A stretch of DNA of 44,268 bases, filler included, from Sphacelaria rigidula (lineage: Eukaryota): NCBI GenBank assembly GCA_964200075.2. It is 2 parts of 2 records of this genome, joined end to end, with 100 filler letters (N's around TTAATTAATTAA, not from the genome) between each part and the next. Parts side by side here need not be neighbours in the genome. Positions count along the whole stretch, not along the records: positions 22,186 to 44,268 come from CAXNAA020000356.1; 1 more part is not named here. One strand, written 5' to 3'. Under the pieces are notes generated by a model that ran no database searches, had not been told where the DNA came from, and saw nothing but the letters and a program-made list of their open reading frames with translations. The stretch's first letter is position 1; each line of letters opens with the position of its first letter. The position numbers and the translations under genes were made by a program. Below, one piece after another: positions 11,376 through 41,949 of this stretch.

Positions 11376-14300
11376 CTCCCCCATGATCTCACAGCGGTAG
11401 CACTGTAATAGAAAGCTGATACAATCACACCCAACGTGCTAGAACATGATTCACGAACTCGACAACATATAACATCTTAACCCGCTTAGTTACGATGTCT
11501 GCGCGCTGCTTGGCGCTCGTTTGTACGCATCGCACGGTGAAGAGCTTCTTCTCGACGTATTGCCATGAACATTTCAGCTTTATATTCACGAGTCTCGTGC
11601 GCCCGTTGAACCTGGTGACTGTAGCCGCCTGGACGGCGCCACGATTGTCGCAAAACCACAGGGTGGTGTCCTATGGAAGTCCCATCTCTTCCAGAATGCC
11701 CCGAATGAAAATGTAATGACGCATACACTGTACCATGGCCGTCCATTCCGCTTCTGGAGAAGAAAGAATGACGGAGGTCTGTAGTTTGGATCGCCACACT
11801 ATCGGAGACTTGTTCATTAGCAAGAGGTAGCCCGTGACGCTCCTGCGTGTTTCGGCATCGTTTGCCCAGTCCGAGTCCGCATAGCCCACCAGTGTCTTCT
11901 GGGTCTTTACGATGCCCATACCATACTGTAGGCAGACGTCAAGCGTACCAGCTAGGTAGCGGAGAACGAGTTGTAGTCCTTGCCAGTGTCACAGGCAGGG
12001 AGAGGCAGCCCGGCGCCCTAGCTCTCGAACACCGTTGGAGAGATCAGGTCGTGTCATTTCTGCGAGGAACATTAATTTTCGAGAATCCTTGCGTACGGGA
12101 ACTGGGAGGTGTCCAGCTCCTCTTCACGTACTTTCCGCTCTGACAGGTCCATACTCGGGTCGAGGGGAGATAGGTTTTCCACACTTGTGTCGAGCCCATT
12201 CCTTCGACGACGATGCTCTCGGCATAGGCGAGTTCGTGTATTTCGCCAAGAGGCATGTCTGCATATGCTGAACCTCTTAGGTGTTGTCACCGGAGAACAG
12301 GACGTCATTCATGTAGGCCATCAGGACAGCGACGCGCCCACCTTTGGCCTGAAGGTGGTAAAGGTATTCGTCGTGGTGGCTGTTGAGCCAGTCTTCGGTG
12401 AGTATCGTGCTCCTCAATTCCTTGAAGCATTGTACGGCGGACTGCTTTAAGTCACAAAGGGCCTTGTCCGCCTTGAACACTCCCTTGTCGGGCAGCTCTA
12501 GCTAGACGTCCTCCAGGAGCGACACATTTAGGTATGCCTGCGTGAAACCCAGCATTCCAGTCCCCCATTCGTGCAGAGCGGCTGTCCCTAGAATGGTGCA
12601 CATGACGTCGAAGCCTACGATCGGGTTAAACGTCTCGGAGAAGTCGATTCACTTGCGCTGAGTGAACCCGCGAGCCACGAGTCGGGCCTTACATCTCTCT
12701 ACTGCTCCGTCGGCCGTGCGCTTGATCTCGTATACGAACCGCGTCTTGACTGGAATCTTATCGCGCGGTAGAGATTCGTTGGTGAACGTCCCCTGATCCC
12801 AGAGACTTTCAATTCCATCGTCTGTGGCCAGTTTCCATCTGTCTGCATCGGGCCCTGCCAGGGCTTCTGTCGCGGTCGACGGTTCTTCTGGTCATTTGGC
12901 GATTTCGCCTACTAATCCGAGCATGCAGAGTGCATCTTCGTCATGATCTTTCAGAAGGGCGACGACAAAATTTCCGTCGTCGGAACTGCTGTCGTCAGAA
13001 CTCCTGAAGCGTTGTTGTGTGTTATCCCCCCGACGCCATTGCGCGAGTCTACTGCACCTGCGCAGTTTACTATCCGAAGGAGAGCACTTCGATGATGTCG
13101 GGTCTTGTGGTGGCTGTCCACCCGGGCCGTCGTCGCGGTTGATTGGTGCTGTTTTCTCCTCTTCCGACGTTTCGCGCTCTCTATCACTCAGCTCGACGGC
13201 CTTCAACTCCCCTACGATGTCTAGAATATTGGCCTCTGATTCGAACGTAATGTGTGAAGACTTCATTAGCTTGAATTTCTGCATTCGCCATACATACCAG
13301 CAGAGCGAGTGCCGATCGTGCCACACCAAGGTACCCCGCTTCGCATATGGGTGAAACTTTAGAGCGGCGCCGCGCTGTTGCTTGTGCTGGTGCATGAAAC
13401 ACTCGGATTTCGAAGCACGGAGCCGATTGTAGTTGAACGGCTTCCTTGTCAGCCTCTCACATGGGGTCTCGCCCTTGAGGTACTCGTGGGGCATCCCTGC
13501 GGTCTTGTATGCCGCGTCCGCTACAGCGAAGAACCAGTAGTCCTCTCCGCGTCCCACTTTCACCTGTTGGCTGCGTACTATCCTCATCAGTTGGTGAATT
13601 GCACGTTCAGCAATTCTATTAAACTGCGGCGTTCTTGGCGGTGAGCAGCGCCACCTGATGCCGCGATTCACCAGCATGCGTTGAAATTTGACCGATCGTC
13701 CAAGTTCCCCAGCGTTGTCTCCACCGACGCATTTGATGGCCACTCCCTCACGGGCCATTTCGTCGATGCAGGCTCCCGTGGCGTCAGTGGTAGCATCTCG
13801 TGTCTTGAGAGTCCAACAACGTGCTTGTCTCGACTAGCTTCGTCCACGAAAACCTGGAAATATTTCATACCCGTGACATCGGCGTGGAAAGGCCCTTCAA
13901 GGTCAGTGTGCACGGCTTCACCTGGTGCTTTGGCACTCCTGCCGCCGCGGCCGTATCTGAGCGCCTCGCACTTGCATTCCCTGCAGACGCTACAGTGTAT
14001 TTCGGACACCACCGTGTTATCAGTTACATCGATCAGCACACGCTTCTCGAGGTGTTTCATGGCAGCCGGATCGGTGTGTCCTAAGGTGTCGTACCATTTC
14101 CTCAACGTGAGGCGTGGCTTCTTATTTGCGTACGAAGAGTGCGTCGACGCCGCATGTTTGCCATTCCCCCGCACGGATGCCGACAGGGTCAGGAACCCTT
14201 CATTTTCGGCTAGGGGGATCTTCGGTCTATCCTCTCTGAACCGAAGGCAGCTCTCCTTCCTGCCAGAGTCCACGAATTCTCCTCGGTGACACCGAATCGT

Positions 14301-15478
14301 TCCCGTGCTCAACAGCCAGCAAGGTAGTCCAAGGACCCGAAGTTCGTCCTTCAGTGTGACCTTTGCCGGAGCCTTCTTGTCCTGAGCGCTGAGGTGTAAT
14401 GGGATCTCCCCCGTTGCCAGCGCCTACAGCTGCCCCTTGTTCCTAAATGTACAGCTTCGATTCACCGTACGCGTATTTCTGATATCCTCTTCCCAGGGAG
14501 TCATGTTGAAATCTCTGTTGAGCCCCGGGTCGGCTTTGATACCGTCGGTTTTCGATTGGAACGTTACTGCCTCGTCACGGCATTCTATGTCGGACGTTAG
14601 GTATGTTGATGATGCTACGACTGTCTGTTGTAGTCTGTCGTACGTTACACCTAGCTGGGTTGTTAGCTGGATGAATACTTGTAGAAGCGCCTCCTTGATC
14701 CCGAGTAAAAGGGCTGCCCTCTTAGTCTCGTCGGCTTTGGCGTTACCACGCGCTTCGAATTCCCCCCAGATGGTGTCCAGCTTCACCAAAAAATGCTGAT
14801 TCCTCTGCAGAGTTGCATTGGAGATCCCGCAATCTTCTTTCCAAGCAAGCAAGTAGTTGCACAGGCCGCCCGTCCTGTGCACGTCCTCCGTAGATCCGTT
14901 CCAGCTCCAGCAAGGCTTCCCTACCGTCGGGGTTGCCACCGTGCTCGAATCGTGCGGCAATGGCTGCGGCTGACCCTTTCGTAGTCTGTGCCAGAAGGAA
15001 CCACAAGGATTGCGTATTGCGTTGGTATGTTTCGTACGCCCTACGTCGGTCTAGTGTTACGGTCGCTGTCGGAAAGCCCGGTGTGGCGTAGTCCGATCGC
15101 AGCAGAGGGTATCGTCCCTTTCCCCCTGCGTATCCCACGATGGCGAGTCTCCATGCATCCCATGTTTCCCCGTCAGTGTCCACCAGCGCCCGTCCAGTTC
15201 GGCAGCTTGAGTGGGTCTGCCTACATACTCTTCGAGGCTCACGAACCTTCGCACATGTGAGATGTGGTTTACGTGGTCGTGGCGCTCTTCCTCGCAGTGC
15301 ACCGTTTATAGCGGAGTAAGATTATTGTCACGAGCAATCTTGATGGGTTGAGCTAATGACAGACCTGCGTGGGGCGCTACATCGCCGTGCTTTTATCGTT
15401 TCTTCAGATGTCACCCGCTTGCTTGGTGTACAGCTCAATCTGAACCTTCTCTCTAAATCTCAGCCCTGAGCCCCAACT

Positions 15479-31599: not shown

Positions 31600-33163
31600 G
31601 CTTTTGCTATAATTTTTGTCGAAGGAAACAATCGGACACAATTCATCAGTTAATGGTATGAGCGGACGAACCTCACCCCCGACCTCTCCAGGGGGGACAT
31701 TTCCCCTGCACCCGCCGCGTGCTACTGGATTTTTTTTCGGTCTTCCGTTATAAAATGGTTGACGCCGACCTTTTGCGCTGTCATTTTTTCCTCTTCGTCA
31801 GGGCTTCTCATAATGAGGCGTCTGGCCCGGGGACAGGAGGGGAGTGTTCCAAAAGGGTTCAAAGCAAATAATAAAACCCACTCTCAATCTCACCAAAACA
31901 TCATGCCGCGTAGAAATCAAGAGTTTCAGGCCTTGTCCTCCCGAGATGATGAAAAAGAAACGGGAACAGGAACAAACGACCGAAAGCAGCACGTTCATCA
32001 GTCGCCGCAACGATAGACCCGCCGGGCGATTGAACAGACTGCTTTCGAACCTTGTTCGTTGTCCCAATTATTTTTTTTGGTCTTCAGAAGATAAAGCACG
32101 AACTTGGGTTACTTCGCGCGTTGAAAATGGGCCCTCTCTTGTTTCCGAAAGCAGTGGATACGCCTCATAAAACAAGTTCAACCCGTTAACCACAAGTACA
32201 AGTGGTTTCCATCTGTCCACCACCAACTGGCATCATCGTTTCGTCGTATACCTGGAAAAAACACCGCTCAACTCAGCATTTCATCTCCGGACGCTCGGAG
32301 GGTCAATTCTCGAACTGCAGGCAACCAGCCTGTTGCTTCATCAGCATTTCTTCCGGCTTCGAAACTTAGTGCGAGATTCACGTGTCCACCAGTACACACT
32401 CGTGGGTCCGAGTCAACCCGCGTAACCGGCGTGTTGTCAAAAGCATCATGCAAGGTACTCCAATGCGGAGACGTTGCCACCACCTATCGGAGGTCCAACA
32501 GATAGATAAAAAACTTCACATGCATGGAAAAAAAGAGTAAAGATATGCTCGGCCGTTAAACCTTTCAAAACCGACTCTATGCCATGCAAGTACCGTTCCA
32601 CCACATGGAAATACCCGGCTCGCTACCAGGACGCTTTCACATGGAAAACTGGAGCAGAAACGAATCACATTCTACAAATCTGTAGCCTATATTTGAATGA
32701 ACACCCCCTTTGACCACCAAAAGGAACACTCAGACGAGACCCAAGCGATTGCAGACAAAGCCGACACGACTCATCCCCTCCAACTCGTGCCCATTCTATA
32801 ATCCACCAGCAAGAGCGCTTCGATCAGCCCGAGTATACTTTTCACGAAGCCAGACACACGTCTCCTGACACACTCTAAACACGATCCACAATTTCAACCT
32901 CATCCGAGATTTGCTCGTGCCGACTGCACTGCATTTCGTTTCTTTGGCGTGAGCTAACGAAAACAATCCTCTATATGACTGCTCCGTGTGAAGCGGACCA
33001 ATCATTGAACATAACAGGATGCACATGTACAGTGAAAATTCTGACTAGAGAAAATGACAGAAAACAAAACCTGCTGTACAACATTGATTTCTTGGCCTAG
33101 AACCAAAGATATCACACGACAGCGATCGGAGTGGTACTACGACAAACAAAAACTATTGAAAAG

Positions 33164-33939
33164 TTAGAACGTCATCTCTTCCTTGACAAATGATTTGCTT
33201 GGAGTAGAACCACAGACGGGGGAGGCCGCAGGCATGCAGTCATCTGTCAACAGCGACAGGAATCCATCGCCGCTTACATCAGCATCGCCATCGCCGGAGA
33301 GAATATCCATAAGTAGATCATCGCAGGCCGCCTCATCATCCTTATCGAAAATGACGACGTGCTGCTGCTCGTCTTGGGCGCCATGCGGGAAAGTAGTATC
33401 TAGGTCGTCGGTCATAAACGGCGGCATTTCCGAGGAAGTCGAACATTCTTCGGTAGTCGTGGAACATGACGTGTATCCGCAGTCTGCCTTGCAGCTGGAA
33501 ACGCTCTCCTCAACATGAGCATAGAAATCCACCGGAGACTGGTCATCATTTTCTTGCATCTCCATCTTGACGAGGCTCGATCGGATGAGCGGTTGAGGTT
33601 GTTTCGTTTGTTCGAGGGTGGGGGGGAAGGATTCCGGTGTGCGAAGCGCATCTGACGCACGAATTGTACGATCTCTCGACACCCTAGGGGCGCGGGGATT
33701 GAATTTCCGAGCGTAGGGCTTGTCGGTCTTAGCAGCGACTAGCTGGTCATCAACGGCTGAAAGTCTCGCTTTTTTGGAGGTGGAGATACAAGTGGGAGAA
33801 CGAGACGACGGAAGGGTAGCGGGATGGGTCATGTTGACCGCTGACGGGTTGTTGGTTTTGTTCCCGCAGGGTGAACGGAAGCCGTTGGTGTTGTCGGTTT
33901 GCGCATGAACGCGGTGACTGTGAGCTGTCGTCTCCACAG
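33164..33939 (-). CDS. bZIP (HAC1/XBP1/bZIP60-like) transcription factor, C-terminal segment translated only after splicing; acidic activation-like domain
   Basis: Long open frame ending ...DDEAACDDLLMDILSGDGDADVSGDGFLSLLTDD...EEMTF*; in frame with the bZIP exon after removal of 34202-33940. Confidence 0.75.
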
Positions 33940-34202
33940 CAGGGAGACTAGTTAAAGTTGGCGTACGAATCACCGTCCATTAACGGACGGCCAACGATGC
34001 CTTAAACGACCTGTTGTTCAAGACGGTCGACTCGGAGCTTTGCCGGCTACCCCCCCCGCCCCCCGCCCTCTCTCGCATCCTCACAAACGCCTTTCCGCTC
34101 AGAAAGACTGAACAGGTGCGGTACAGAGAGGGGGAAAGGATGGGGGGAAGTAGAGGCTTAGACTCCTTCATCTGACCATTTGAACCCGGTCTGCGAATGC
34201 TG
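33940..34202 (-). other. Putative IRE1-type unconventional intron (263 nt)
   Basis: Bounded by GCGAGU-CAG|CAGC-AUUCGC and GUCUCC-CUG|CUGU-GGAGAC hairpins; the excision product is in frame; the interior is self-complementary. Confidence 0.75.
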
Positions 34203-34503
34203 CTGACTCGCGAGAGTTTAAACAGTTCACTGATCCGCCACCGTGCCCTGCGCGTCCCTTCAACGTTGGGTCCCGACTCGCTTCCCTTTTCCTTCCATTT
34301 CCTCCCGATCTCGTCCCACTGCCGGCGCTTCTGCTCGAACCTGGACCTACTCGCCCACCTCCCGACGACGAGACTCTTGGTCTCCCGTCACCACCCCTAC
34401 TGCTCCCGCCACACTGCTGTTGAGCCTGTTGAAGGGTGTCCGATTGCTCGTATCTCAAAAGTCGCTGCCTTAGGTTATCATTCTCCTGATTTAGGCGCGC
34501 CAC
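34168..34503 (-). CDS. bZIP factor exon 3: leucine zipper plus Gly/Ser linker (unspliced form stops at 34168; spliced form leaves after 34203)
   Basis: tccag|GTG; VARLNQENDNLRQRL continues the heptads from exon 2; ends ...NSRESAAFADRVQMVR*. Confidence 0.85.
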   Translation of the reverse strand: MARLNQENDNLRQRLLRYEQSDTLQQAQQQCGGSSRGGDGRPRVSSSGGGRVGPGSSRSAGSGTRSGGNGRKREASRDPTLKGRAGHGGGSVNCLNSRESAAFADRVQMVR

Positions 34504-36144
34504 CTGGAGTCAAAGAAGAGGAAAAAGCAAGCCGGGAATGCACAGGGGGTTGGTTTATTTTGGGGATCGCCATCAAGTCGTTTATTAACGTCGGTCCTGA
34601 CATATTAGTCGTACTGAACAACTGGACCCTCAAAAATGTGACACCCACTCCTCAGGTCTGTGACGATTTCGTCCTGGAAATAGACGACCCTGTCATCTAC
34701 ATATCATTTGGCAATCCTAATCGCGATTCTACTGCCTCCCACTCCACACAAAACATGCAAAATGAACTCTCGGAAGCTGTTGCTTTTGCCAGAGTCATCA
34801 GTGCAACTACCAGAGTGGCACAGGCCCCAGCCAATAGCAATCTCTGATGACGTGAGACGGTCATGCGCAGGTGGCGAGGAATCCGCTCAGAGCACGAATA
34901 ACATTTTTTTCTCGTGTACTTCAATGACTGAGTGATGCATCCCATCTGGCAGTTTTGGGGGTTCAGTGAGTCCCTCATACCGGTACCCGACAGTGGTGCA
35001 CGAGGTGTCCGAACTATTCGCCCTTGCTCTGGACACGGGTATACCCATGCAGAAATACCCAGTTGCGGGTAAGGATTTCTGTACAACCTCCATATCGTCT
35101 CCGACAGGTTCTCCGACGTTCCTCGACAACATGCAGGTAACCGACAGTTACGTACGTTGTGAGATAGCCTTATACCCCACTGAGCATACCCGTACCCTCC
35201 ACAACATCGTTCGTTTCGTACACTCTAGTAGCAACCTCTTGCTAATACTCCAGCTCATGCGAATAAAATCAGTGAGAGACAACATTTGACCCTCACCACA
35301 AAAATTTGGCAAGAAGAGCAGTCTCGTGACCAAATTCGGTGGGGGGGGGGGCGAATGCAACAAGAAGCGGCGGAATCGTGCAAAATACGACCTGAGAGGT
35401 CCACGTCATTCATAGTTCTCAATGATTCATGATTCTCTTGATTCCGCATTTCTGTCCTGGCCACCAACAAAATCGAAGATGTTGACTACACTTCTTCAGC
35501 GTGGATATGCGGCAGAGGAACATGAAAGGAAACTCCACCTCTTTTGGAACACCCCGCCAGACGCCACTCGTTCACAAAGACCCCACACAGTTCATTATCA
35601 TTTACCACCACAACCCTGCAACATAAAGCAGGAACTGATCACGGGAATATATACGGCGGGGTGGTATGTGGTATGTGGCAGTACCGCTCAGATGTCAAGC
35701 GACACTAACAGTTTATAGATTTCTACGATGCAACCCTGCGAGAAAGTGTTCCACGTCGCTCGACATCCAAGCGGTTTTGCCACGTACCATCCCGGAGGCA
35801 GTGTATCCTCTGGTTGCACCAGCACATGGTGCGGGCGAAGCCACAGCAACTTCCGGCGTCAGCGCTACAGTCGCCCGCTGTCATGATTAGAAATAGACCA
35901 CGGACTGGTGAACTAAATATGATGACAAAATAGTGTGTTCGCCAACCCGCTCGGACTGAAACCTGGTGAAACGAGCAAATTCAATCACCAATTCTTCTCC
36001 TTAACTCAATTTCTCCCGAAAAGACACCCCCTCAGCTTCTCACGCGTCGACTGTTGAAACTATGATCGGTTGCTCTGACCACTGAGCTCGTCAAGTCGTT
36101 ATTTTCTCTCAAGCACGTCATTTGTCGACAGCGCGTGGCTTTAA

Positions 36145-36240
36145 CCCTTAGACCGCGAGGTTAGTCTTCTGTCGAATCGGCATCAATTTCGAGTGAAAAA
36201 GTAGGCATGATCCAGAAAGACTAATCTCGCGGTCTAAGGG
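36145..36240. mobile_element. piggyBac-type MITE (96 bp) inside the bZIP intron
   Basis: ttaa|CCCTTAGACCGCGAGGTTAGTCTT ... AAGACTAATCTCGCGGTCTAAGGG|ttac; CCC/GGG ends and TTAA-like target. Confidence 0.8.
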
Positions 36241-36849
36241 TTACTCCCGGAACGAGGAGCTCATTTACGATCTTGTAGTTCACCCACGTCCGGAACATGC
36301 TCGACTTTTCGTTCAACACGATGCACCAGTAGGCAATTTCCGAAAATTTCATACGACCGACTTCGTCCATCATGCGGTCCCCATGACAGTCGCGTCTGTC
36401 ATAGCTGACCATCCTTCAGCATCTACTGCCGGCGCCACATTTCCTGTGGCGACGATAAGTAGCGTCCCGGTATTCAGCATGCCCCTGTTCAATGAAGCCC
36501 CCAGCCTCAGTCACCACTGCCCCAACCTCACTCTGACCGCTCCGCCTGTAGCTTCGGCTACGCACTAGCCTAGCTCGTCACCGGCTGCGGCAGCAACGAC
36601 CGCCTCTGACACCCACAGCGTGCTGGAGGCAAAATCTTTGCCGCAAATGTGCCCTGCAGACACACTCAATGTGCGCCCCATATCGCGGTGGCAAAGCGAA
36701 ACCGTTTTCTTTGGACGCCACGGGTCAGACCCCACACCTTGTGATACCGAAGTCGCGGGGTCTGATCCCCGATTTGGGATGGAAGAGTCATGCTTGGCTT
36801 TTGAATACGCCGACATCAAAGGACGTCAATAAGATCATCTTAGAGTGCA

Positions 36850-37160
36850 CGTCGTGGGTCGGGCCCAACGACTTCGTGTGTACACGATATTACAGGGAGG
36901 GGGAGGGCAAAATCCGCGAAGTACACTGCAAGGTGGTCACGCTTGGTGCATGATTACGTCTGGTATCATCATAGCATCAACGCGAACATAGCATCAACGC
37001 GAACATTAATCGGCGTCAGGGCGCGTCCAGTTCGACTGTCTCACCGTGCACATCGTGGGTCAGGCCCAGCGACTTTGTTTGTTCATGAACTTGCTGGGCA
37101 TCATCCGCGAGGTGCACTGTCACGTGGTCACGCTTGGCGCATGATAATGTCTGTCATCAT
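36850..37160 (+). repeat. Diverged direct repeat (~200-bp period) plus a 17-bp tandem duplication
   Basis: tcgtgggtc.ggccca.cgactt...atccgcga.gt.cactg...gtggtcacgcttgg.gcatgat occurs twice; catagcatcaacgcgaa occurs twice near 36970-37005. Confidence 0.6.
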
Positions 37161-37257
37161 GTGGGCTGAGCAAGGGAGTCTTATTGCGCACTACCTTCAC
37201 ACCCGGGAGGTTCGTGTATTGCACTCATGGGGCTTGATGTGCCAAGTGCACGATAGG

Positions 37258-37651
37258 TAGAGGTCGGAAATAGTTTGTCCAACCATTAACCAGTTGAATG
37301 GTTGCGCGTAGCGCACTCACCAACCAGTTATATAGTGCATGATGGTATGGTCATCGGGCGGCGCAGCCGTGGGCCAAAAAGCCCCCCCCAGAGGGGGTTC
37401 GGCCGGAGGCGCCCCCGGAGGGCCCCGCTGGAGGCGCCGTGCCGGAAGCACGTTTGTACGCGATTTGGTTTCACGAGAACAAAAAAAAACGTAAAAATTG
37501 GGCCAATTTTCAAGGGCTGTATGTAGCATACGCAGCCGGTAACGGTAAACCATGGTTTGAAACCATTATCCAAAACTTTCATATGACCATTACCATTGTT
37601 ACCATTATAATGATAATAGCCGAGTATAACTGGTACCATTTCCGAGCTCTA
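37258..37651. mobile_element. hAT-type MITE inside the bZIP intron
   Basis: TIR TAGAGGTCGGAAATAGT / ACCATTTCCGAGCTCTA (15/17 match); perfect 8-bp TSD ACGATAGG (37250-37257, 37652-37659); ACCAT subterminal repeats. Confidence 0.9.
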
Positions 37652-40030
37652 ACGATAGGGCTATTGCGGTTCAGGACCAAGTATTGGAAATGGGAGGTAT
37701 ATTTTTACACAAGACCAACAGTTCCCGATGGTATCGTTGACAACATCACGAGCTAGTTGACCACATGAACGCAATAATATACTCTCAGATTAGAAAGCCA
37801 CCACTGTCAATCCTTGATGCTGATCGACTTTTGCTTTGAACGACGGGAATAAAACGAGCTTGAAATTGATCATGAGAAGACCTCAACAAATGCCGCCATT
37901 ACATATCAGTAACAACCAGCGTGCCGGCAACTTTGTTTTGTCGTTTATGGATACAAATGTGTTACGCGTCGGTTACTGGACTGAGAACAGATTCACCACA
38001 CGCCACACACACGACCAAGCACGAAAGCCGAACCAGGAGTTGCAGCCCTTCGACGTGTGCATGGAGCTATGGAAGTCAAGACATAAAATAAGTACACGGG
38101 GGGGGGGGGCTTGTTTTCCAACACCTCCAACGATCAACATACCGTGGGTTACACTCGATGCACGGAGGATTATCGATATCTACCAGCACCCAATTGCGCA
38201 ATCGATAGGCGGGTTTTGCAACAAAATGCACCCAAATCCGGGATATCGCCGCTTGGCTTCATGAGCGGTCGACTATACTCGAAAGCCGGCGGCCCATTTT
38301 TACATGAGTCTTTCTCCAGTCTTGACGTTACATGGGAAAGTAAAATTTCTTGCTCCTGTTGCTTCTGGTTTAACAAGGTAAGGACGGCGCGTGTCATGTT
38401 GATAGAATTGAGGATCTTGATCGCCCTCTCGGGGCTTACGAGCTAACGAACGACTCCCCTTCCGTCGAACAAAACGCATTGCCAAGTGTTCTTTGCAATG
38501 TGTACAACAGTTGGGCAGGTGGCGCCAGGAAGTAATACCTTCACTCGTGAAACAGTTTCGCAACAATTGCCCCCCCCCCCCTCACTGCCCCGTCTCCATA
38601 GGAATGCGTGGTCAATGGCCAAACGACCGAGGCAGGCAACAGATGAGTACCCCCGCCCTCGCATGATTTCGAAAAAGTATTTCTGCACCTTGGCACCACA
38701 TCCGTTGTTCCGTGCACACCGTTTCGAATGCAGGTCGTAATATAACTGACAACTAAACATGACTCTTGCGTCGTCCAAAGAGTTGAAAGTATCATGACCT
38801 AACGCTTGACACACGATCTTGCGCAAATGATTGCGGCGGATACTTGCCCTCCACAATCGACCAAAAGGTGTCGTGCTCTCAACAGGATATCCTCACTTAT
38901 GTTTTTCGTGCGGCCGAAACAAATCTTCGGAACTAAGAGGAACAGATGAAAAGAGGGGAGATGTCCAAAATGTCACTTCGACGTTTCCAGCGAGGCGGCC
39001 TTTCGGAACGATATAATCGAGTATGGCGGAACGCCGTCAACCCCGACCCTAGACCCGAGCGGTTTCTACACGCTTTGGCACCAACATTTATAGAGGAATC
39101 TTAACCATGCACTTGAAATGCCTGCGGCATGTCGTCCTCACTGGGTTCTGTGAGTACGTCAGCGACTACCAGTCCCCAACAGTCTGGCAGCGGCGATTGT
39201 GAGAAACCACATTGTTGTGATGGTACAGCGAGCCGGGTGAGTAGTCACGATATTTAACGCGAATCGATCTGAGGACTCATACCCGGAAGATCATATTGTA
39301 CAAATGTAGGACCCCATTAGATCGGATTGGGCGGCGTGGTGTAGTTGTGTAGGCAGCAAGGAAGAGGCGCCGAGTTGACGCAGGCAGACACTTCAACAAA
39401 TAATACAAATGTTTCAGGACCCTTTCAACAGACACCCCGCGCTATCCAAGCACCGGCACCACTGTATGCACTACTTTGCTTCGAAGGGCAGCTGTAACGT
39501 GAGGCGCAGAACAGCAGCTGCCTTACAAGGATCCTCAAGAACACGCGACCGAGAGAAACTCGACCTCTGTTGCCGTGAACGTCTTGAAAGCGAGACACAA
39601 AAATTAATAGCCGGTGGGACACTACAGACACAAAAGTATGGAAGGAAAAAATAAACGCACGTACAAGATCAAGATCGACGGTACGACCTCCACAATTTAC
39701 TTGTCTGCAGTGAGAAAATAACCATCACGGGGTATAAATCTCGTCATTGAAGCGCGACACACCAGAGGACTGATACACAACCCTCAAGCGAGTCGACTCA
39801 ACATGCTCGGAAATACGTCAATCGCCGCCACAGTTTGATGCGGTTTCGGTAAACATCTTGGTCATGTATGAAGCCGGCAGGAAGGAAAGTAGGAGAGGGA
39901 GAACAATCGTGTGTGCATGCTGCGTTTAGGGCTCTTGTAGGAGGACCCGTGTTGATCATGCACGCTTTCAAGAGTAATGTGCTAGTTTTTCTGTAAGGAG
40001 TTGTCAGATGGTACTCGAGATAAAACGCAC

Positions 40031-40192
40031 CTCTTGCTCCAGAGATTCGATCCGGTCTCGTTTCCGCTTGCGGCTCAGAGCGGCAGACTCTCGGTTCCGG
40101 ATCATCCTTTGCTGCTTCTTCCATGCTTGCTTCTCCACCCCGTGGGTCGGCGCGTCCTCTCGTGGTGCGAAAGGATCTGGCTTGGCATCTTC
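40031..40192 (-). CDS. bZIP factor exon 2: basic region
   Basis: KKQQRMIRNRESAALSRKRKRDRIESLEQE (N-x7-R bZIP basic motif); GAG|gtgcgt donor; acceptor at 40192 or 40198. Confidence 0.9.
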
Positions 40193-40843
40193 CTGCACCT
40201 CGTTATGAGTAATAAGAAAAAACACGAGCACACATGAGCACGGACGAAGAACAAAATACACGCAAGAAAAGGCGTGGGTTGCAGAGCTGAGTGTGCCTCA
40301 CCAGAAAAAAAAAAAGTGCATCTTTTATGTATTTCACATCATCAGCGGAGGTGGATGGATTGTCAGTTGTATCACATCAGGCGAGACACCAGCGCGATAT
40401 CCCATGACTTGTGAGATCGACAGATTATGGAACGGGGGGCAGCGGGAGGGGGGGGGGGGGGGGGGGGGGCAGGGGAAGGGCAGGGAAAGGGTAGCGGGGG
40501 GGGTTCATTACGGCGTTACCTCTTTCNNNNNNNNNGGGGGGAAGGGAGCGGGGGTTGGGGTGGAGGCGGGGGGGGGCATGGGTGGGGCGGTGGTGGCCTC
40601 CGGGTGTGGGGGAAGGGCAGCGAAAGGGTAGCGGGGGTGGTTCATTACGGCGTTACCTCTTTCAAAGTTAGCCCCACATCAATTCACCGCCTGTTGTGAA
40701 AAAGCTTCAAAAACGCACATTCCAAATTTTTGGTGCACACCAGACTTCAAAGCCAGACAAAACGTGGCGCATTCTTGAAAGACGTATGAATAAAGCAAAC
40801 CTGTCTCTGCCCCGCCTTCAGAAACCCAACCCCACAAACTCAC

Positions 40844-41185
40844 ATCGTCATCCGACTCTTCCGCACTTGAGTACACCTGATTACGCGCGGCGGCCGCGGC
40901 CGCGGCGGCGAGGGCATTCCTACTCCTAGTTTGCTTTAATTTGAGTGCCCTAGAACGCCGTCTCTCCCCGGCTGCCTCGGGAGACATCAGTACCGATTTA
41001 GGTGAAGCTGCTGCCGCCTCGGCCAGGGACCGGAGGGAGTCCATGGAAGGAGACGATGAAGACGAAGCTGTTGGGGATGGTGGCACTTTGTTTTGCTGTT
41101 GGTGCTGCTGTTGTTTGTGCTGCTGCCCGAGGGTACCGGACGCGACTGCTCCAGTGCATTGCGTCTGCATGTCCAGTGGCGGCAT
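40844..41185 (-). CDS. bZIP factor, first coding exon (Q/S/A-rich)
   Basis: ATG 41185 preceded by an in-frame TAA; GAT|gtgagt donor in phase 0 with exon 2. Confidence 0.75.
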
Positions 41186-41949
41186 TTACTTTTGAACGGA
41201 AGCTGTACCGATAGATGAGCAAGTCGCAGGTCACAGTCCTCTTGTACTGTGAACACCTGTCTATTTTGGTATTTGTTCACCAGTGCCACTTTGTACACGC
41301 CCTTCTATGTACAAAATGCCGTGAAACGACGGGATCCAGTTGCAGCGGATACCGCCTGCAACAATGAAACCCCCCTACTGTGTCTCTGTTCCTCTCTATT
41401 CTCCTGCTCTCTTCTCCCCCCTTCCCCCCCGCCCTGCTTGCAGCAAGCACCGCGTTGACACTGAGCGATAGTACCACAACAGTCTTCGTTTTGTGGCTCT
41501 TCGATCTTGGGTAGGAGGCTACCGGTATGCGCCCTGGTCAATGATGACGGGTTCTTGAAGGTGGTGAGTTGAGCTTAAGCTAAAAACGCCAAAATATCAT
41601 AAACGGGGTTGACATTCTTACCGCATGACATATGGTCATACGTTACGGTGCAGTTTTGCCCGGTCTCCGACTGATGCTACAATACATAAATCCGTGTTTT
41701 TTTATCGTTAAATCATTTATTTTAGCAGTCTAGCATGAAAATAAGCATATTCCCTTCGAGTATTGCAGGTTATTATTGCTCTAATAGAATATATGGGGGG
41801 TACGAATCGTCTTTGTCGTGTTTTTTGTGCTGGATCTCATCTTCGATATATCGACCGCGGGTCTGTACAGCTGTATAATTCGGCAACACGCGGGTGACAC
41901 TACTGTATCACGCTGCCGTCTGCGGCACGCGAACATTACATCAAGCAAG

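What the first reader, a model, noticed from the sequence alone, without database searches (positions are those of the whole stretch)
33930..34211. Hidden IRE1-type unconventional splicing switch in a stramenopile bZIP gene (HAC1/XBP1/bZIP60-like)
Seen: on the minus strand, downstream of the bZIP zipper, are two hairpins with 6-bp stems and 7-nt loops. They are GCGAGU[CAG|CAGC]AUUCGC (34211-34193) and GUCUCC[CUG|CUGU]GGAGAC (33948-33930). Cutting after the third loop base and ligating removes 263 nt (34202-33940) and gives ...GAG TCA G|CT GTG GAG (ESAVE). This fuses the bZIP in frame to a 257-aa acidic C-terminus (about 526 aa in total); unspliced RNA stops after ESAAFADRVQMVR (about 279 aa). 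An exon-exon basal stem GUGAACUGU (34230-34222) / ACAGCUCAC (33928-33920) can close the structure. Established: IRE1 cleaves CNG|CNG 7-nt loops in yeast HAC1, animal XBP1 and plant bZIP60; the first hairpin encodes ESAAL in XBP1 and ESAVL in Arabidopsis bZIP60 (ESAAF here), and their 26- and 23-nt introns are 3n+2, as is 263. Inference: this is the UPR transcription factor of a probable brown alga, a lineage where I know of no described IRE1 substrate (literature not checked).
Basis: partly seen in the sequence, partly recalled or inferred. Interest (0 to 1): 0.95.

Follow-up and report, generated by a model that had tools for sequence, protein, structure and literature searches.

The report
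Predicted IRE1-spliced bZIP gene, brown alga
A brown-alga-type transcription factor gene carries, inside its mature mRNA, a 263-base segment bounded by two hairpins that fit the cut sites of the stress sensor IRE1, so it is probably this lineage's counterpart of yeast HAC1, animal XBP1 and plant bZIP60, although the spliced RNA itself was not seen.

Summary
Both 6-bp/7-nt-loop hairpins are there. Removing 34202-33940 (263 nt, 3n+2) joins the bZIP frame to a 257-codon open frame.

RNA contigs confirm a three-exon minus-strand gene. The 5527-nt GT-AG intron is removed. The abundant mRNA contig (depth 685) keeps the 263 nt without a single difference. No contig shows the predicted junction, so splicing itself is not shown.

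Conservation supports function:
- Named brown-algal orthologues keep CLNSRESAAF over hairpin 1.
- Four homologous ORFs and three gene models read LPAVET across hairpin 2, including residues that lie inside the intron.
- A diverged homologue contig keeps only the two hairpin regions, with a 281-nt (3n+2) spacer.

Public gene models stop early or bridge the gap in four different ways. Three use a possible GT-AG intron (window 34207-33948), which is the main rival.

Ten literature searches found no IRE1 substrate described in stramenopiles.

Verdict: probable IRE1-type unconventional intron (about 0.78), a new member of a known kind. IRE1, the ligase and stress induction were not testable here.

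The parts
40844..41170 (-). Exon 1 coding part (ATG at 41170 inferred; ends ..GATGACGAT before GT 40843-40842)
   Evidence: Sequence. The frame is a multiple of 3 with a GT donor. RNA contig loose ends behind 40192 in X1 and X5 spell the reverse complement of the exon 1 end (table 7). ERRRSRALKLKQTRSRNA and YSSAEESDDD match the brown-algal orthologues.
40193..40843 (-). Conventional intron 1 (GT..AG, 651 nt; holds a 9-N gap at 40527-40535)
   Evidence: The acceptor at 40194-40193 was set from the contig loose end at 40192.
40031..40192 (-). Exon 2: bZIP basic region (KKQQRMIRNRESAALSRKRKRDRIESLEQE)
   Evidence: Pfam PF00170 bZIP_1 E 5e-08, 33.4 bits against a cut-off of 27.6. The motif was found at 40096. 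35 homologues, all with precomputed bZIP Pfam domains.
34504..40030 (-). Conventional intron 2 (GT..AG, 5527 nt)
   Evidence: RNA contig joint 34500->40028 (cut +3) skips 5527. Depth is 1144 in X1, 1142 in X7, 5.3 in X5 and 3.5 in X6. Intron depth is about 1-9 outside repeats, against 685 on exon 3.
34203..34503 (-). Exon 3, 5' part: leucine zipper continuation (VARLNQENDNLRQRLL), Gly/Ser/Arg-rich linker, up to the predicted 5' cut after G34203
   Evidence: The heptad register runs on across the exon 2/3 joint (sequence). The junction segment is 17-18 of 19 identical to four Ectocarpus proteins, against 13 of 22 in the zipper.
34222..34230 (-). 5' arm of the exon-exon basal stem (GUGAACUGU)
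   Evidence: Pairs with 33928-33920 in the MFE fold of 33900-34250.
34193..34211 (-). Hairpin 1: GCGAGU-CAG|CAGC-AUUCGC, predicted IRE1 5' cut between 34203 and 34202; encodes ESAAF
   Evidence: SRESAAF is kept in Ectocarpus x4, Discosporangium and Scytosiphon proteins. The region 34193-34232 is matched, with 4 differences, by a diverged homologue contig.
33940..34202 (-). Predicted unconventional intron, 263 nt (3n+2), with a strong internal C-rich/G-rich helix
   Evidence: Length and frame. Fold z -5.49. Retained with 0 differences in the depth-685 mRNA contig.
34168..34170 (-). Stop codon (TGA) of the unspliced reading frame, inside the predicted intron
   Evidence: unspliced product 274 aa, ending ..ESAAFADRVQMVR.
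33930..33948 (-). Hairpin 2: GUCUCC-CUG|CUGU-GGAGAC, predicted IRE1 3' cut between 33940 and 33939
   Evidence: LPAVET is read across it in homologous ORFs P0002, P0003, P0007 and P0010 and in gene models P0029, P0031 and P0032. 33918-33949 is matched by the diverged homologue contig.
33920..33928 (-). 3' arm of the exon-exon basal stem (ACAGCUCAC; encodes T-A-H, kept as [TAS]AH in homologues)
33164..33939 (-). Exon 3, 3' part: 257 codons plus stop, read only after removal of the 263 nt. Acidic end with FDKDDEAACDDLLMDILSGDG..GFLSLLTDD and FVKEE..F
   Evidence: ORF 33164-33979. 12 homologues at E<=0.001, 8 at E<=1e-10. Invariant columns D214 A217 A218 C219 L222 I226 G231 F240 S242 L244 D246 V265 K266 E268. 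The last 133 aa have D+E 31 and K+R 4. No Pfam family.
32700..33163 (-). 3' untranslated region (at least this far)
   Evidence: The same mRNA contig runs unbroken from 34505 to 32700, the edge of the stretch laid (table 8).

Best explanation
This is a three-exon bZIP transcription factor gene of a brown alga or a close relative. Its mature mRNA holds an IRE1-type unconventional intron, of the same class as HAC1, XBP1 and bZIP60.

Shown:
- The spliceosome removes two GT-AG introns.
- The resulting abundant mRNA still contains a 263-nt segment.
- Read as it stands, that mRNA gives a 274-aa protein with a basic region and zipper and a short tail (..ESAAFADRVQMVR), but no acidic domain.

Inferred mechanism:
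1. On ER stress, activated IRE1 cuts 3' of the G at loop position 3 of two 7-nt loops (after G34203 and after G33940).
2. The two hairpins are held together by an exon-exon basal stem and a long helix inside the intron.
3. An RNA ligase of the tRNA-splicing type joins the exons.
4. The 3n+2 deletion shifts the frame, so ..SRES runs on as AVETTAH.. into 257 further residues. These end in a conserved, strongly acidic segment, the likely activation domain.
5. The 521-aa product would turn on ER-stress genes.
For: 1. Both hairpins are at the stated places. Their loops CAGCAGC and CUGCUGU fit the published rule (rule from PMC4891664 introduction, and PMC3216516 passages).
2. The 351-nt fold keeps both hairpins and the basal stem (z -5.49, 0 of 100 shuffles).
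3. The host is a bZIP.
4. RNA contigs remove the 5527-nt intron (joint depth 1144). The 263 nt stay in an unbroken contig of depth 685 with 0 differences (X1 and X7 look like one data set filed twice).
5. Removal gives one open frame of 521 aa.
6. The added part is a conserved family: 12 hits, 8 at E<=1e-10.
7. Hairpin 1 codons SRESAAF are kept in 6 of 11 named or EukProt orthologue models. Three more keep CLNSR up to a GA|GT site. The junction segment is the best conserved part of exon 3.
8. The 4 ORFs and 3 gene models that read through hairpin 2 all give LPAVET. This includes L and P, which lie inside the intron and would not be translated after splicing.
9. A diverged homologue contig (depth 352 and 270 in two runs of one sample) matches the window only at 34193-34232 and 33918-33949. 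It has 261 other letters where the window has 243, so its intron is 281 nt, again 3n+2.
10. This is the pattern reported for fungal HAC1 introns, which are conserved only round the splice sites (PMC6627864 passages).
11. Two unnamed marine-protist transcripts of 188-190 aa with near-identical basic regions end shortly after ESAAF or GSAVF.
Against: - No RNA contig in the 4 runs laid (at most 3 samples) carries the 34203|33939 joint. Contigs drop rare variants and the growth conditions are unknown, so this is weak, but splicing is simply not shown.
- None of the 11 named or EukProt orthologue models has the IRE1-type junction.
- None of the 12 C-terminal hits is fused to a bZIP.
- A GT..AG pair (34207-33948) offers a conventional route to nearly the same protein.
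- Hairpin 1 alone folds no better than shuffles (z -0.98).
- Conservation of the hairpins is inferred from protein translations and from one contig match at 90% likeness or more. The positions of that contig's 3-4 differences per arm were not shown.
- No compensatory base changes could be counted.
- Presence of IRE1 and a ligase in this genome was not testable.
Confidence: 0.78

Rival explanations
1. The segment is an ordinary spliceosomal intron (GA|GTCAGC...AACTAG|T, window 34207-33948, 260 nt, 3n+2). It is mostly retained and is spliced under some conditions, giving ..NSRDLPAVET.. and a 522-aa protein. On this reading the hairpins are incidental or only modulate splice-site access.
For: - The GT and AG are present and the product is in frame with one stop.
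- Three public gene models (Pylaiella P0029, Ectocarpus fasciculatus P0031, Ectocarpus sp. 6 P0032) use exactly this join, CLNSR|DLPAVET.
- Regulated intron retention is a known phenomenon (general knowledge).
Against: - The depth-685 mRNA contig retains the segment unbroken and no such joint appears. The neighbouring 5527-nt intron in the same RNA is removed, with a residue of about 5 against 685.
- The donor has C at +3 and the acceptor has a poor pyrimidine tract. The two confirmed introns of this gene have GTGAGT or GTGCGT donors and CAG|G acceptors.
- The six fused public models bridge the gap in four different ways, and five other models do not bridge it at all. This looks like ab initio guessing, not transcript evidence.
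- This reading does not explain two loops with the IRE1 consensus, the conserved stems or the basal stem.
Confidence: 0.12
2. IRE1 or another endonuclease cuts the hairpins only to destroy or silence the mRNA (RIDD-like decay), without ligation. The downstream open frame would then be reached some other way or not used.
For: The cut-site consensus is the same for IRE1-dependent decay targets (general knowledge, not checked here). No ligated form was seen.
Against: The downstream frame is open for 257 codons and conserved as protein in 12 homologues. It lies exactly in the frame produced by cutting both loops. The 3n+2 length is kept in a diverged homologue (281 nt).
Confidence: 0.05
3. Chance hairpins. 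The gene ends at the TGA at 34170-34168, and the downstream open frame is a separate gene, is reached by ribosomal recoding, or is not coding.
For: Single hairpins of the loose type occur about 4 times per 44 kb in random sequence. A second, apparently meaningless pair lies in intron 2.
Against: - A same-strand CNGCNGN pair arose in 2 of 300 simulations. Here it also sits in a bZIP mRNA and restores a 257-codon frame.
- The hairpin regions are conserved across brown algae.
- The target frame has a TAA at 33982-33980, between the unspliced stop and the conserved part. Recoding would therefore need both a frameshift and a readthrough.
- Both parts lie on one mRNA contig.
Confidence: 0.05

Closest known systems
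Saccharomyces cerevisiae HAC1 mRNA (Ire1p/Trl1p-spliced)
   Same: - bZIP mRNA with two hairpins at the intron borders, cut by Ire1 and ligated by a tRNA ligase.
- Long intron (252 nt there, 263 nt here).
- The unspliced mRNA is the abundant resting form.
- A stop inside the intron ends a short tail (10 aa there, 12 aa here after the cut).
- In fungi the intron is conserved only round the splice sites, and its length varies from 20 to 626 nt (PMC6627864 passages). The 263/281-nt pair seen behaves the same way.
   Different: - The HAC1 intron is 3n and swaps the tail through the in-intron stop. Here the length is 3n+2, a true frameshift as in XBP1 and bZIP60.
- The added domain is 257 aa here, against 18 aa.
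- A rough duplex test gave no sign of the HAC1-type pairing between 5' leader and intron that blocks translation (the transcription start is unknown).
- The basic region here carries the NxxSAxxSR motif (sequence). PMC4736632 (passages) gives that motif as the deeply conserved bZIP signature. It separately reports a cluster of heterokont, ATF6-OASIS, HAC1 and plant proto-B bZIPs.
Metazoan XBP1 mRNA (IRE1alpha/RtcB-spliced)
   Same: - Two stem-loops with conserved bases in 7-nt loops.
- A 3n+2 deletion (26 nt) that shifts the frame and adds a longer C-terminus with the activation domain: 261 aa to 376 aa (PMC3216516 passages). Here it is 274 aa to 521 aa.
- From my recall only: the first hairpin of XBP1 also encodes E-S-A-A in the same codon phase.
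   Different: - Intron 263 nt, not 26 nt.
- The unspliced tail here is 12 aa after the cut, with no obvious hydrophobic membrane-targeting or pausing region like that of XBP1u (recalled).
- The basic region is of a different bZIP subtype.
- Orthology with XBP1 was not tested.
Plant bZIP60 mRNA (IRE1A/IRE1B-spliced); Chlamydomonas bZIP1
   Same: - Twin hairpins with the six key loop bases conserved among orthologues while the amino acids vary.
- A 23-nt (dicot) or 20-nt (monocot) 3n+2 intron.
- The spliced form is a minor species and was absent from Arabidopsis ESTs (PMC3216516 passages). This matches the lack of spliced contigs here.
- An IRE1-bZIP1 pair in Chlamydomonas is named in a review table and reference list (PMC13545648 passages). 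The primary paper is not held.
   Different: - In bZIP60, splicing removes a transmembrane domain and shortens the protein (295 aa to 258 aa). Here it lengthens the protein and there is no membrane anchor.
- The second plant loop has 8 nt; both loops here have 7.
- The intron is ten times longer here.

Membership tests
IRE1-spliced bZIP mRNAs (HAC1 / XBP1 / bZIP60 class) | Host mRNA encodes a bZIP transcription factor | tested here: met
   PF00170 E 5e-08, above the curated cut-off, on exon 2. The zipper heptads continue into exon 3 across an RNA-confirmed joint.
IRE1-spliced bZIP mRNAs (HAC1 / XBP1 / bZIP60 class) | Two stem-loops, each with a 7-nt loop carrying the conserved bases C1, G3 and G6 (cut 3' of G3) | tested here: met
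   Loops CAGCAGC and CUGCUGU on 6-bp stems. Rule as stated in PMC4891664 and PMC3216516.
IRE1-spliced bZIP mRNAs (HAC1 / XBP1 / bZIP60 class) | Segment is not removed by the spliceosome and persists in the processed mRNA | tested here: met
   A depth-685 contig retains it with 0 differences, while the 5527-nt intron is removed. This rests on one organism-A data set (X1 = X7 by size and figures) plus low-depth contigs in X5 and X6. Cytoplasmic location is not testable.
IRE1-spliced bZIP mRNAs (HAC1 / XBP1 / bZIP60 class) | Removal changes the C-terminus and adds an activation domain | tested here: met
   In silico only: 263 nt = 3n+2, and 274 aa becomes 521 aa. The added part is conserved and its last 133 aa are strongly acidic. 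Activation function is inferred.
IRE1-spliced bZIP mRNAs (HAC1 / XBP1 / bZIP60 class) | Hairpin regions conserved among orthologues while the intron interior diverges | tested here: met
   By proxy. SRESAAF and LPAVET are kept in translations. A diverged contig matches only the two hairpin regions, with a 281-nt spacer.
IRE1-spliced bZIP mRNAs (HAC1 / XBP1 / bZIP60 class) | Compensatory base changes that keep the stems | not testable with these tools
   No orthologous DNA could be fetched. Two metagenome scans gave only chance hits, and no eukaryote genomes are held.
IRE1-spliced bZIP mRNAs (HAC1 / XBP1 / bZIP60 class) | Spliced junction present in RNA and induced by ER stress | tested here: inconclusive
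   No 34203|33939 joint in the contigs of the 4 runs laid. Contigs drop rare variants, conditions are unknown, and raw reads were not available.
IRE1-spliced bZIP mRNAs (HAC1 / XBP1 / bZIP60 class) | Cleavage depends on IRE1; ligation by a tRNA-splicing ligase (Trl1/RLG1 or RtcB) encoded in the genome | not testable with these tools
   No whole genome is held for the window. No query sequence for IRE1 was available within the rules.
Spliceosomal GT-AG intron (rival filing) | GT..AG termini with lineage-typical donor and acceptor context, and removal from mature mRNA | tested here: not met
   The termini are present (34207-06 GT, 33949-48 AG). The context is weaker than in the gene's two confirmed introns. 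The segment is retained in the abundant mRNA contig with no such joint.

The most novel reading that the evidence does not exclude
This would be the first IRE1 substrate identified in stramenopiles, and so in the SAR supergroup. It is conserved from the early-branching Discosporangium to Ectocarpales, and probably present in other marine ochrophytes (short transcripts ending after ESAAF or GSAVF).

If my recalled XBP1 sequence holds, the first hairpin lies in the same codon phase and encodes the same E-S-A-A as animal XBP1. The switch also uses a 3n+2 frameshift. That would mean the whole device, two hairpins plus a frame-shifting intron in a bZIP mRNA, dates to the last eukaryotic common ancestor and was not assembled separately in fungi, animals and plants.

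Here it sits on a basic region carrying the NxxSAxxSR bZIP motif, with a long, highly structured intron.
Probability: 0.6. Interest if true: 0.75.

Novelty: new member of a known kind. Interest (0 to 1): 0.66.

Why it matters
IRE1-dependent mRNA splicing is the oldest branch of the unfolded protein response. In the papers I could read, its substrate is known only in fungi, animals, land plants and a green alga.

A brown-algal substrate would matter for four reasons:
- It extends the mechanism to a third major eukaryotic lineage.
- It gives a direct molecular read-out of ER stress in kelps and Ectocarpus, through a junction-specific RT-PCR.
- It bears on whether the twin-hairpin switch is ancestral to all eukaryotes.
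- It shows that current brown-algal gene models for this factor are either truncated or bridged with guessed introns. The active 521-aa-type protein is therefore missing from their proteomes.

Tried and rejected
- Whole-genome search for IRE1 (PF06479): no genome is held for this window.
- Rfam scan of 32700-41300 at E<=10: six weak chance hits, nothing at the hairpins.
- RNA holders: no listed holder is on record as RNA. Four runs were laid. The spliced junction was not seen in contigs. A low-depth X5 contig ends at 34207, which I do not interpret.
- Protein searches for fused or spliced forms:
  - Exon 3 N-part, longer proteins: none of 3257 candidates scored.
  - C-terminal part, longer proteins: none of 1531 scored, although fused models exist. 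These blanks are therefore uninformative.
  - Representative search: 12 hits, none fused to a bZIP.
- Orthologous DNA:
  - Protein-pattern scan of metagenome contigs: 399 stretches, none confirmed.
  - 19-nt hairpin 2 pattern: 92 stretches. 17 have some upstream loose hairpin, and none has tblastn similarity to the three protein pieces. These are chance matches.
- HAC1-like pairing between 5' leader and intron: the duplex energy of 41150-41450 against the intron is no better than shuffled introns (50 of 60 shuffles as good or better). This was a rough test and the transcription start is unknown. A first version of the script timed out.
- Second twin hairpin at 36659/36590: not stable in a fold (z -1.18).
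- Ribosomal frameshifting: rejected, because the target frame has a TAA at 33982-33980.
- Literature: 10 searches. No paper in the held library describes an IRE1 substrate in brown algae, diatoms, oomycetes or other stramenopiles. The oomycete hits concern the plant host's UPR, judged from titles and abstracts only. One search was badly framed and swamped.
- Hooks and Griffiths-Jones 2011 and Yamaoka 2019 are not held. The former's taxon survey could bear on novelty. Supplements were not consulted.
Full report
**What is there**

Hairpin 1 is GCGAGU-CAGCAGC-AUUCGC at 34211-34193. Hairpin 2 is GUCUCC-CUGCUGU-GGAGAC at 33948-33930. The arms GUGAACUGU (34230-34222) and ACAGCUCAC (33928-33920) are also in place.

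- Folded alone, hairpin 1 is unremarkable (z -0.98). Hairpin 2 is good (z -2.69).
- A 351-nt fold of 33900-34250 places both hairpins, the exon-exon basal stem and a long helix inside the intron in the MFE structure. The energy is -154.1 kcal/mol, z -5.49, and 0 of 100 shuffles fold as well.
- Loops CNGCNGN on stems of 6 bp or more occur four times on the minus strand and never on the plus strand of the window.
- In 300 first-order Markov sequences of the same composition, a same-strand pair within 15-700 nt arose twice.
- With the looser loop CNGNNGN a pair arose in 32 of 300. The hairpins alone are therefore not decisive.

**The gene**

A motif scan found one bZIP basic region on the minus strand at about 40096. 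Pfam bZIP_1 scores above its cut-off on that exon. Reading the sequence and laying RNA contigs gives three exons:

| Part | Window coordinates | Note |
|---|---|---|
| Exon 1 | 41170-40844 | ATG inferred |
| Intron 1 | 40843-40193 | GT..AG |
| Exon 2 | 40192-40031 | basic region |
| Intron 2 | 40030-34504 | 5527 nt, GT..AG |
| Exon 3 | from 34503 | zipper continues in register |

The exon 2/3 joint is seen in all four runs laid, at depth 1144, 1142, 5.3 and 3.5. Loose ends behind 40192 spell the end of exon 1. X5 and X6 are one sample.

Exon 3 depth is 685, against about 1-9 in intron 2 outside repeats, so these runs behave as RNA. The key observation is that one contig of depth 685 runs from 34505 to 32700 without a single difference or gap. 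The abundant processed mRNA therefore keeps the 263 nt and both hairpins.

**What removal does**

Cutting after G34203 and G33940 removes 263 nt (3n+2).
- The unspliced message gives 274 aa, ending ..SRESAAFADRVQMVR.
- The cut-and-joined message gives 521 aa with ..SRESAVETTAH.. at the joint.
- The added part is 257 residues. Its last 133 have 31 acidic and 4 basic residues.
- The target frame has a TAA at 33982-33980, so ribosomal recoding would need two separate events.

**Conservation**

The 257-aa part found 12 relatives in an exhaustive profile search of 1.84 billion representatives, 8 of them at E<=1e-10. They share an invariant core around FDKDDDAACDDLLMDILSGDG..GFLSLL.DD and an FVK.E..F end.

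Hairpin 2:
- Four of these relatives are open frames called on unspliced RNA or DNA that start inside the intron. All four read ..[SC]LPAVET[TAS]AH.. across hairpin 2.
- Leu and Pro lie inside the intron and would never be translated after splicing. Their conservation points to constraint on the RNA.

Hairpin 1. The basic-region exon found named brown-algal orthologues:
- Four Ectocarpus proteins of 305-315 aa end ..CLNSRESAAFADRVLQF.
- Discosporangium (255 aa) has INSRESAAFAG and then reads on.
- Scytosiphon keeps ESAAF.
- Against the four Ectocarpus proteins, the 19 residues round hairpin 1 are 17-18 of 19 identical. The zipper is 13 of 22, and the linker about 23-25 of 52-62 aligned.

A diverged homologue:
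- In the runs of a second organism, a contig of depth 352 (270 in the sister run) matches the window only at 34193-34232 and 33918-33949, with 4 and 3 differences.
- It has 261 unrelated letters where the window has 243. Its intron is therefore 281 nt, again 3n+2.
- The positions of the differences were not shown. No compensatory changes could be counted.

Further afield:
- Two unnamed marine-protist transcripts (188 and 190 aa) with near-identical basic regions end shortly after ESAAF or GSAVF.
- This hints that the device reaches beyond brown algae.

**The main rival**

Three public models (Pylaiella, E. fasciculatus, Ectocarpus sp. 6) join CLNSR|DLPAVET. In the window this corresponds to a GT..AG intron at 34207-33948, 260 nt, also in frame, giving 522 aa. 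I rate it at 0.12 for four reasons:
- The abundant mRNA keeps the segment, while a 5.5-kb intron in the same transcript is removed almost completely.
- Its donor (GTCAGC) and acceptor context are weaker than those of the gene's two confirmed introns.
- The 11 named or EukProt models disagree. Five do not bridge the gap, three use this join, and three use three other joins. That looks like ab initio bridging.
- It leaves the IRE1-consensus loops, the stems and the basal stem unexplained.

**What is not shown**

- No contig carries the 34203|33939 joint. Contigs drop rare variants and the culture conditions are unknown.
- In Arabidopsis the spliced bZIP60 form was likewise absent from ESTs and minor by RT-PCR (PMC3216516 passages).
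- IRE1 and a ligase could not be sought, because no genome is held.
- A rough test found no HAC1-like pairing between leader and intron.

**Comparison with what is known**

The published rule is two stem-loops with 7-nt loops and a cut 3' of G at position 3, followed by ligation by Trl1 or RtcB (PMC4891664 introduction; PMC3216516 passages).
- Known intron lengths are 26 nt in XBP1 and 23 or 20 nt in bZIP60. HAC1 has 252 nt, and fungal homologues range from 20 to 626 nt with conservation only round the splice sites (PMC6627864 passages).
- The present case combines a HAC1-like long intron with an XBP1/bZIP60-like 3n+2 frameshift and a large gain of C-terminus.
- The basic region carries the NxxSAxxSR motif. 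PMC4736632 (passages) gives that motif as the deeply conserved bZIP signature. It separately reports a cluster of heterokont, ATF6-OASIS, HAC1 and plant proto-B bZIPs.
- That XBP1's first hairpin encodes ESAA in the same phase is recalled, not checked.

**Novelty**

Ten full-text searches found no description of an IRE1 substrate in brown algae, diatoms, oomycetes or stramenopiles in the held library. Two relevant papers are not held, and supplements were closed.

I file this as a new member of a known kind: a well-supported prediction, not a demonstration. Confidence in the IRE1 reading is 0.78 and interest is 0.66.

Noticed in passing
window 36668-36579, minus strand (inside intron 2): A second same-strand pair of CNGCNGN loops on 9-bp stems rich in G-U. 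The loops start at 36659 (CUGCAGG) and 36590 (CCGCAGC), and cutting at both would remove 69 nt (3n). No simulation of 300 gave two such pairs. However, the MFE fold does not keep them (z -1.18) and RNA depth there is only about 6. Probably chance in Ala-codon-like GCN repeats.
   Followed up: partly
window 36141-36243, 37236-37739, 38496-38747 (intron 2): Short stretches with very high summed RNA contig depth: up to about 20,000 at 36173, with 44-45 contigs and many loose ends. The rest of the intron is at about 5. These look like dispersed repeats transcribed elsewhere in the genome.
   Followed up: no
orthologue proteins P0025-P0037: Public brown-algal gene models for this factor disagree. 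Five do not bridge the gap: four Ectocarpus models end at the unspliced stop and Discosporangium reads on in the unspliced frame. Three use GA|GT..AG|T. Scytosiphon, Undaria and one EukProt model each use another join. None has the IRE1-type junction.
   Followed up: yes
proteins P0040 and P0042: Two complete 188-190-aa transcripts from a marine protist transcriptome collection have the same KKQQRMIRNRESAALSRKRKRDRI basic region. They end 10-16 residues after ESAAF or GSAVF. They may be unspliced forms of the same switch outside brown algae.
   Followed up: no
window 12895-15321, minus strand: Adjacent long open frames of a retroelement remnant. One has a retroviral-polymerase SH3-like domain (PF25597, E 7.6e-07); the neighbours have no Pfam hit.
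   Followed up: partly
window 40434-40663 and 41420-41450: Long C-rich tracts (minus strand) in intron 1, as two 93-nt direct repeats 82% alike flanking a 9-N gap. A G-rich tract lies upstream of the ATG. The unconventional intron holds similar C-rich and G-rich runs that pair with each other. Such tracts seem common in this genome.
   Followed up: no
window 32700 and below: The 2681-nt mRNA contig has only 1806 nt on 32700-34505, and at least one contig runs over an end of the stretch laid. The 3' untranslated region may be well over 460 nt, which is unusually long downstream of either stop.
   Followed up: no
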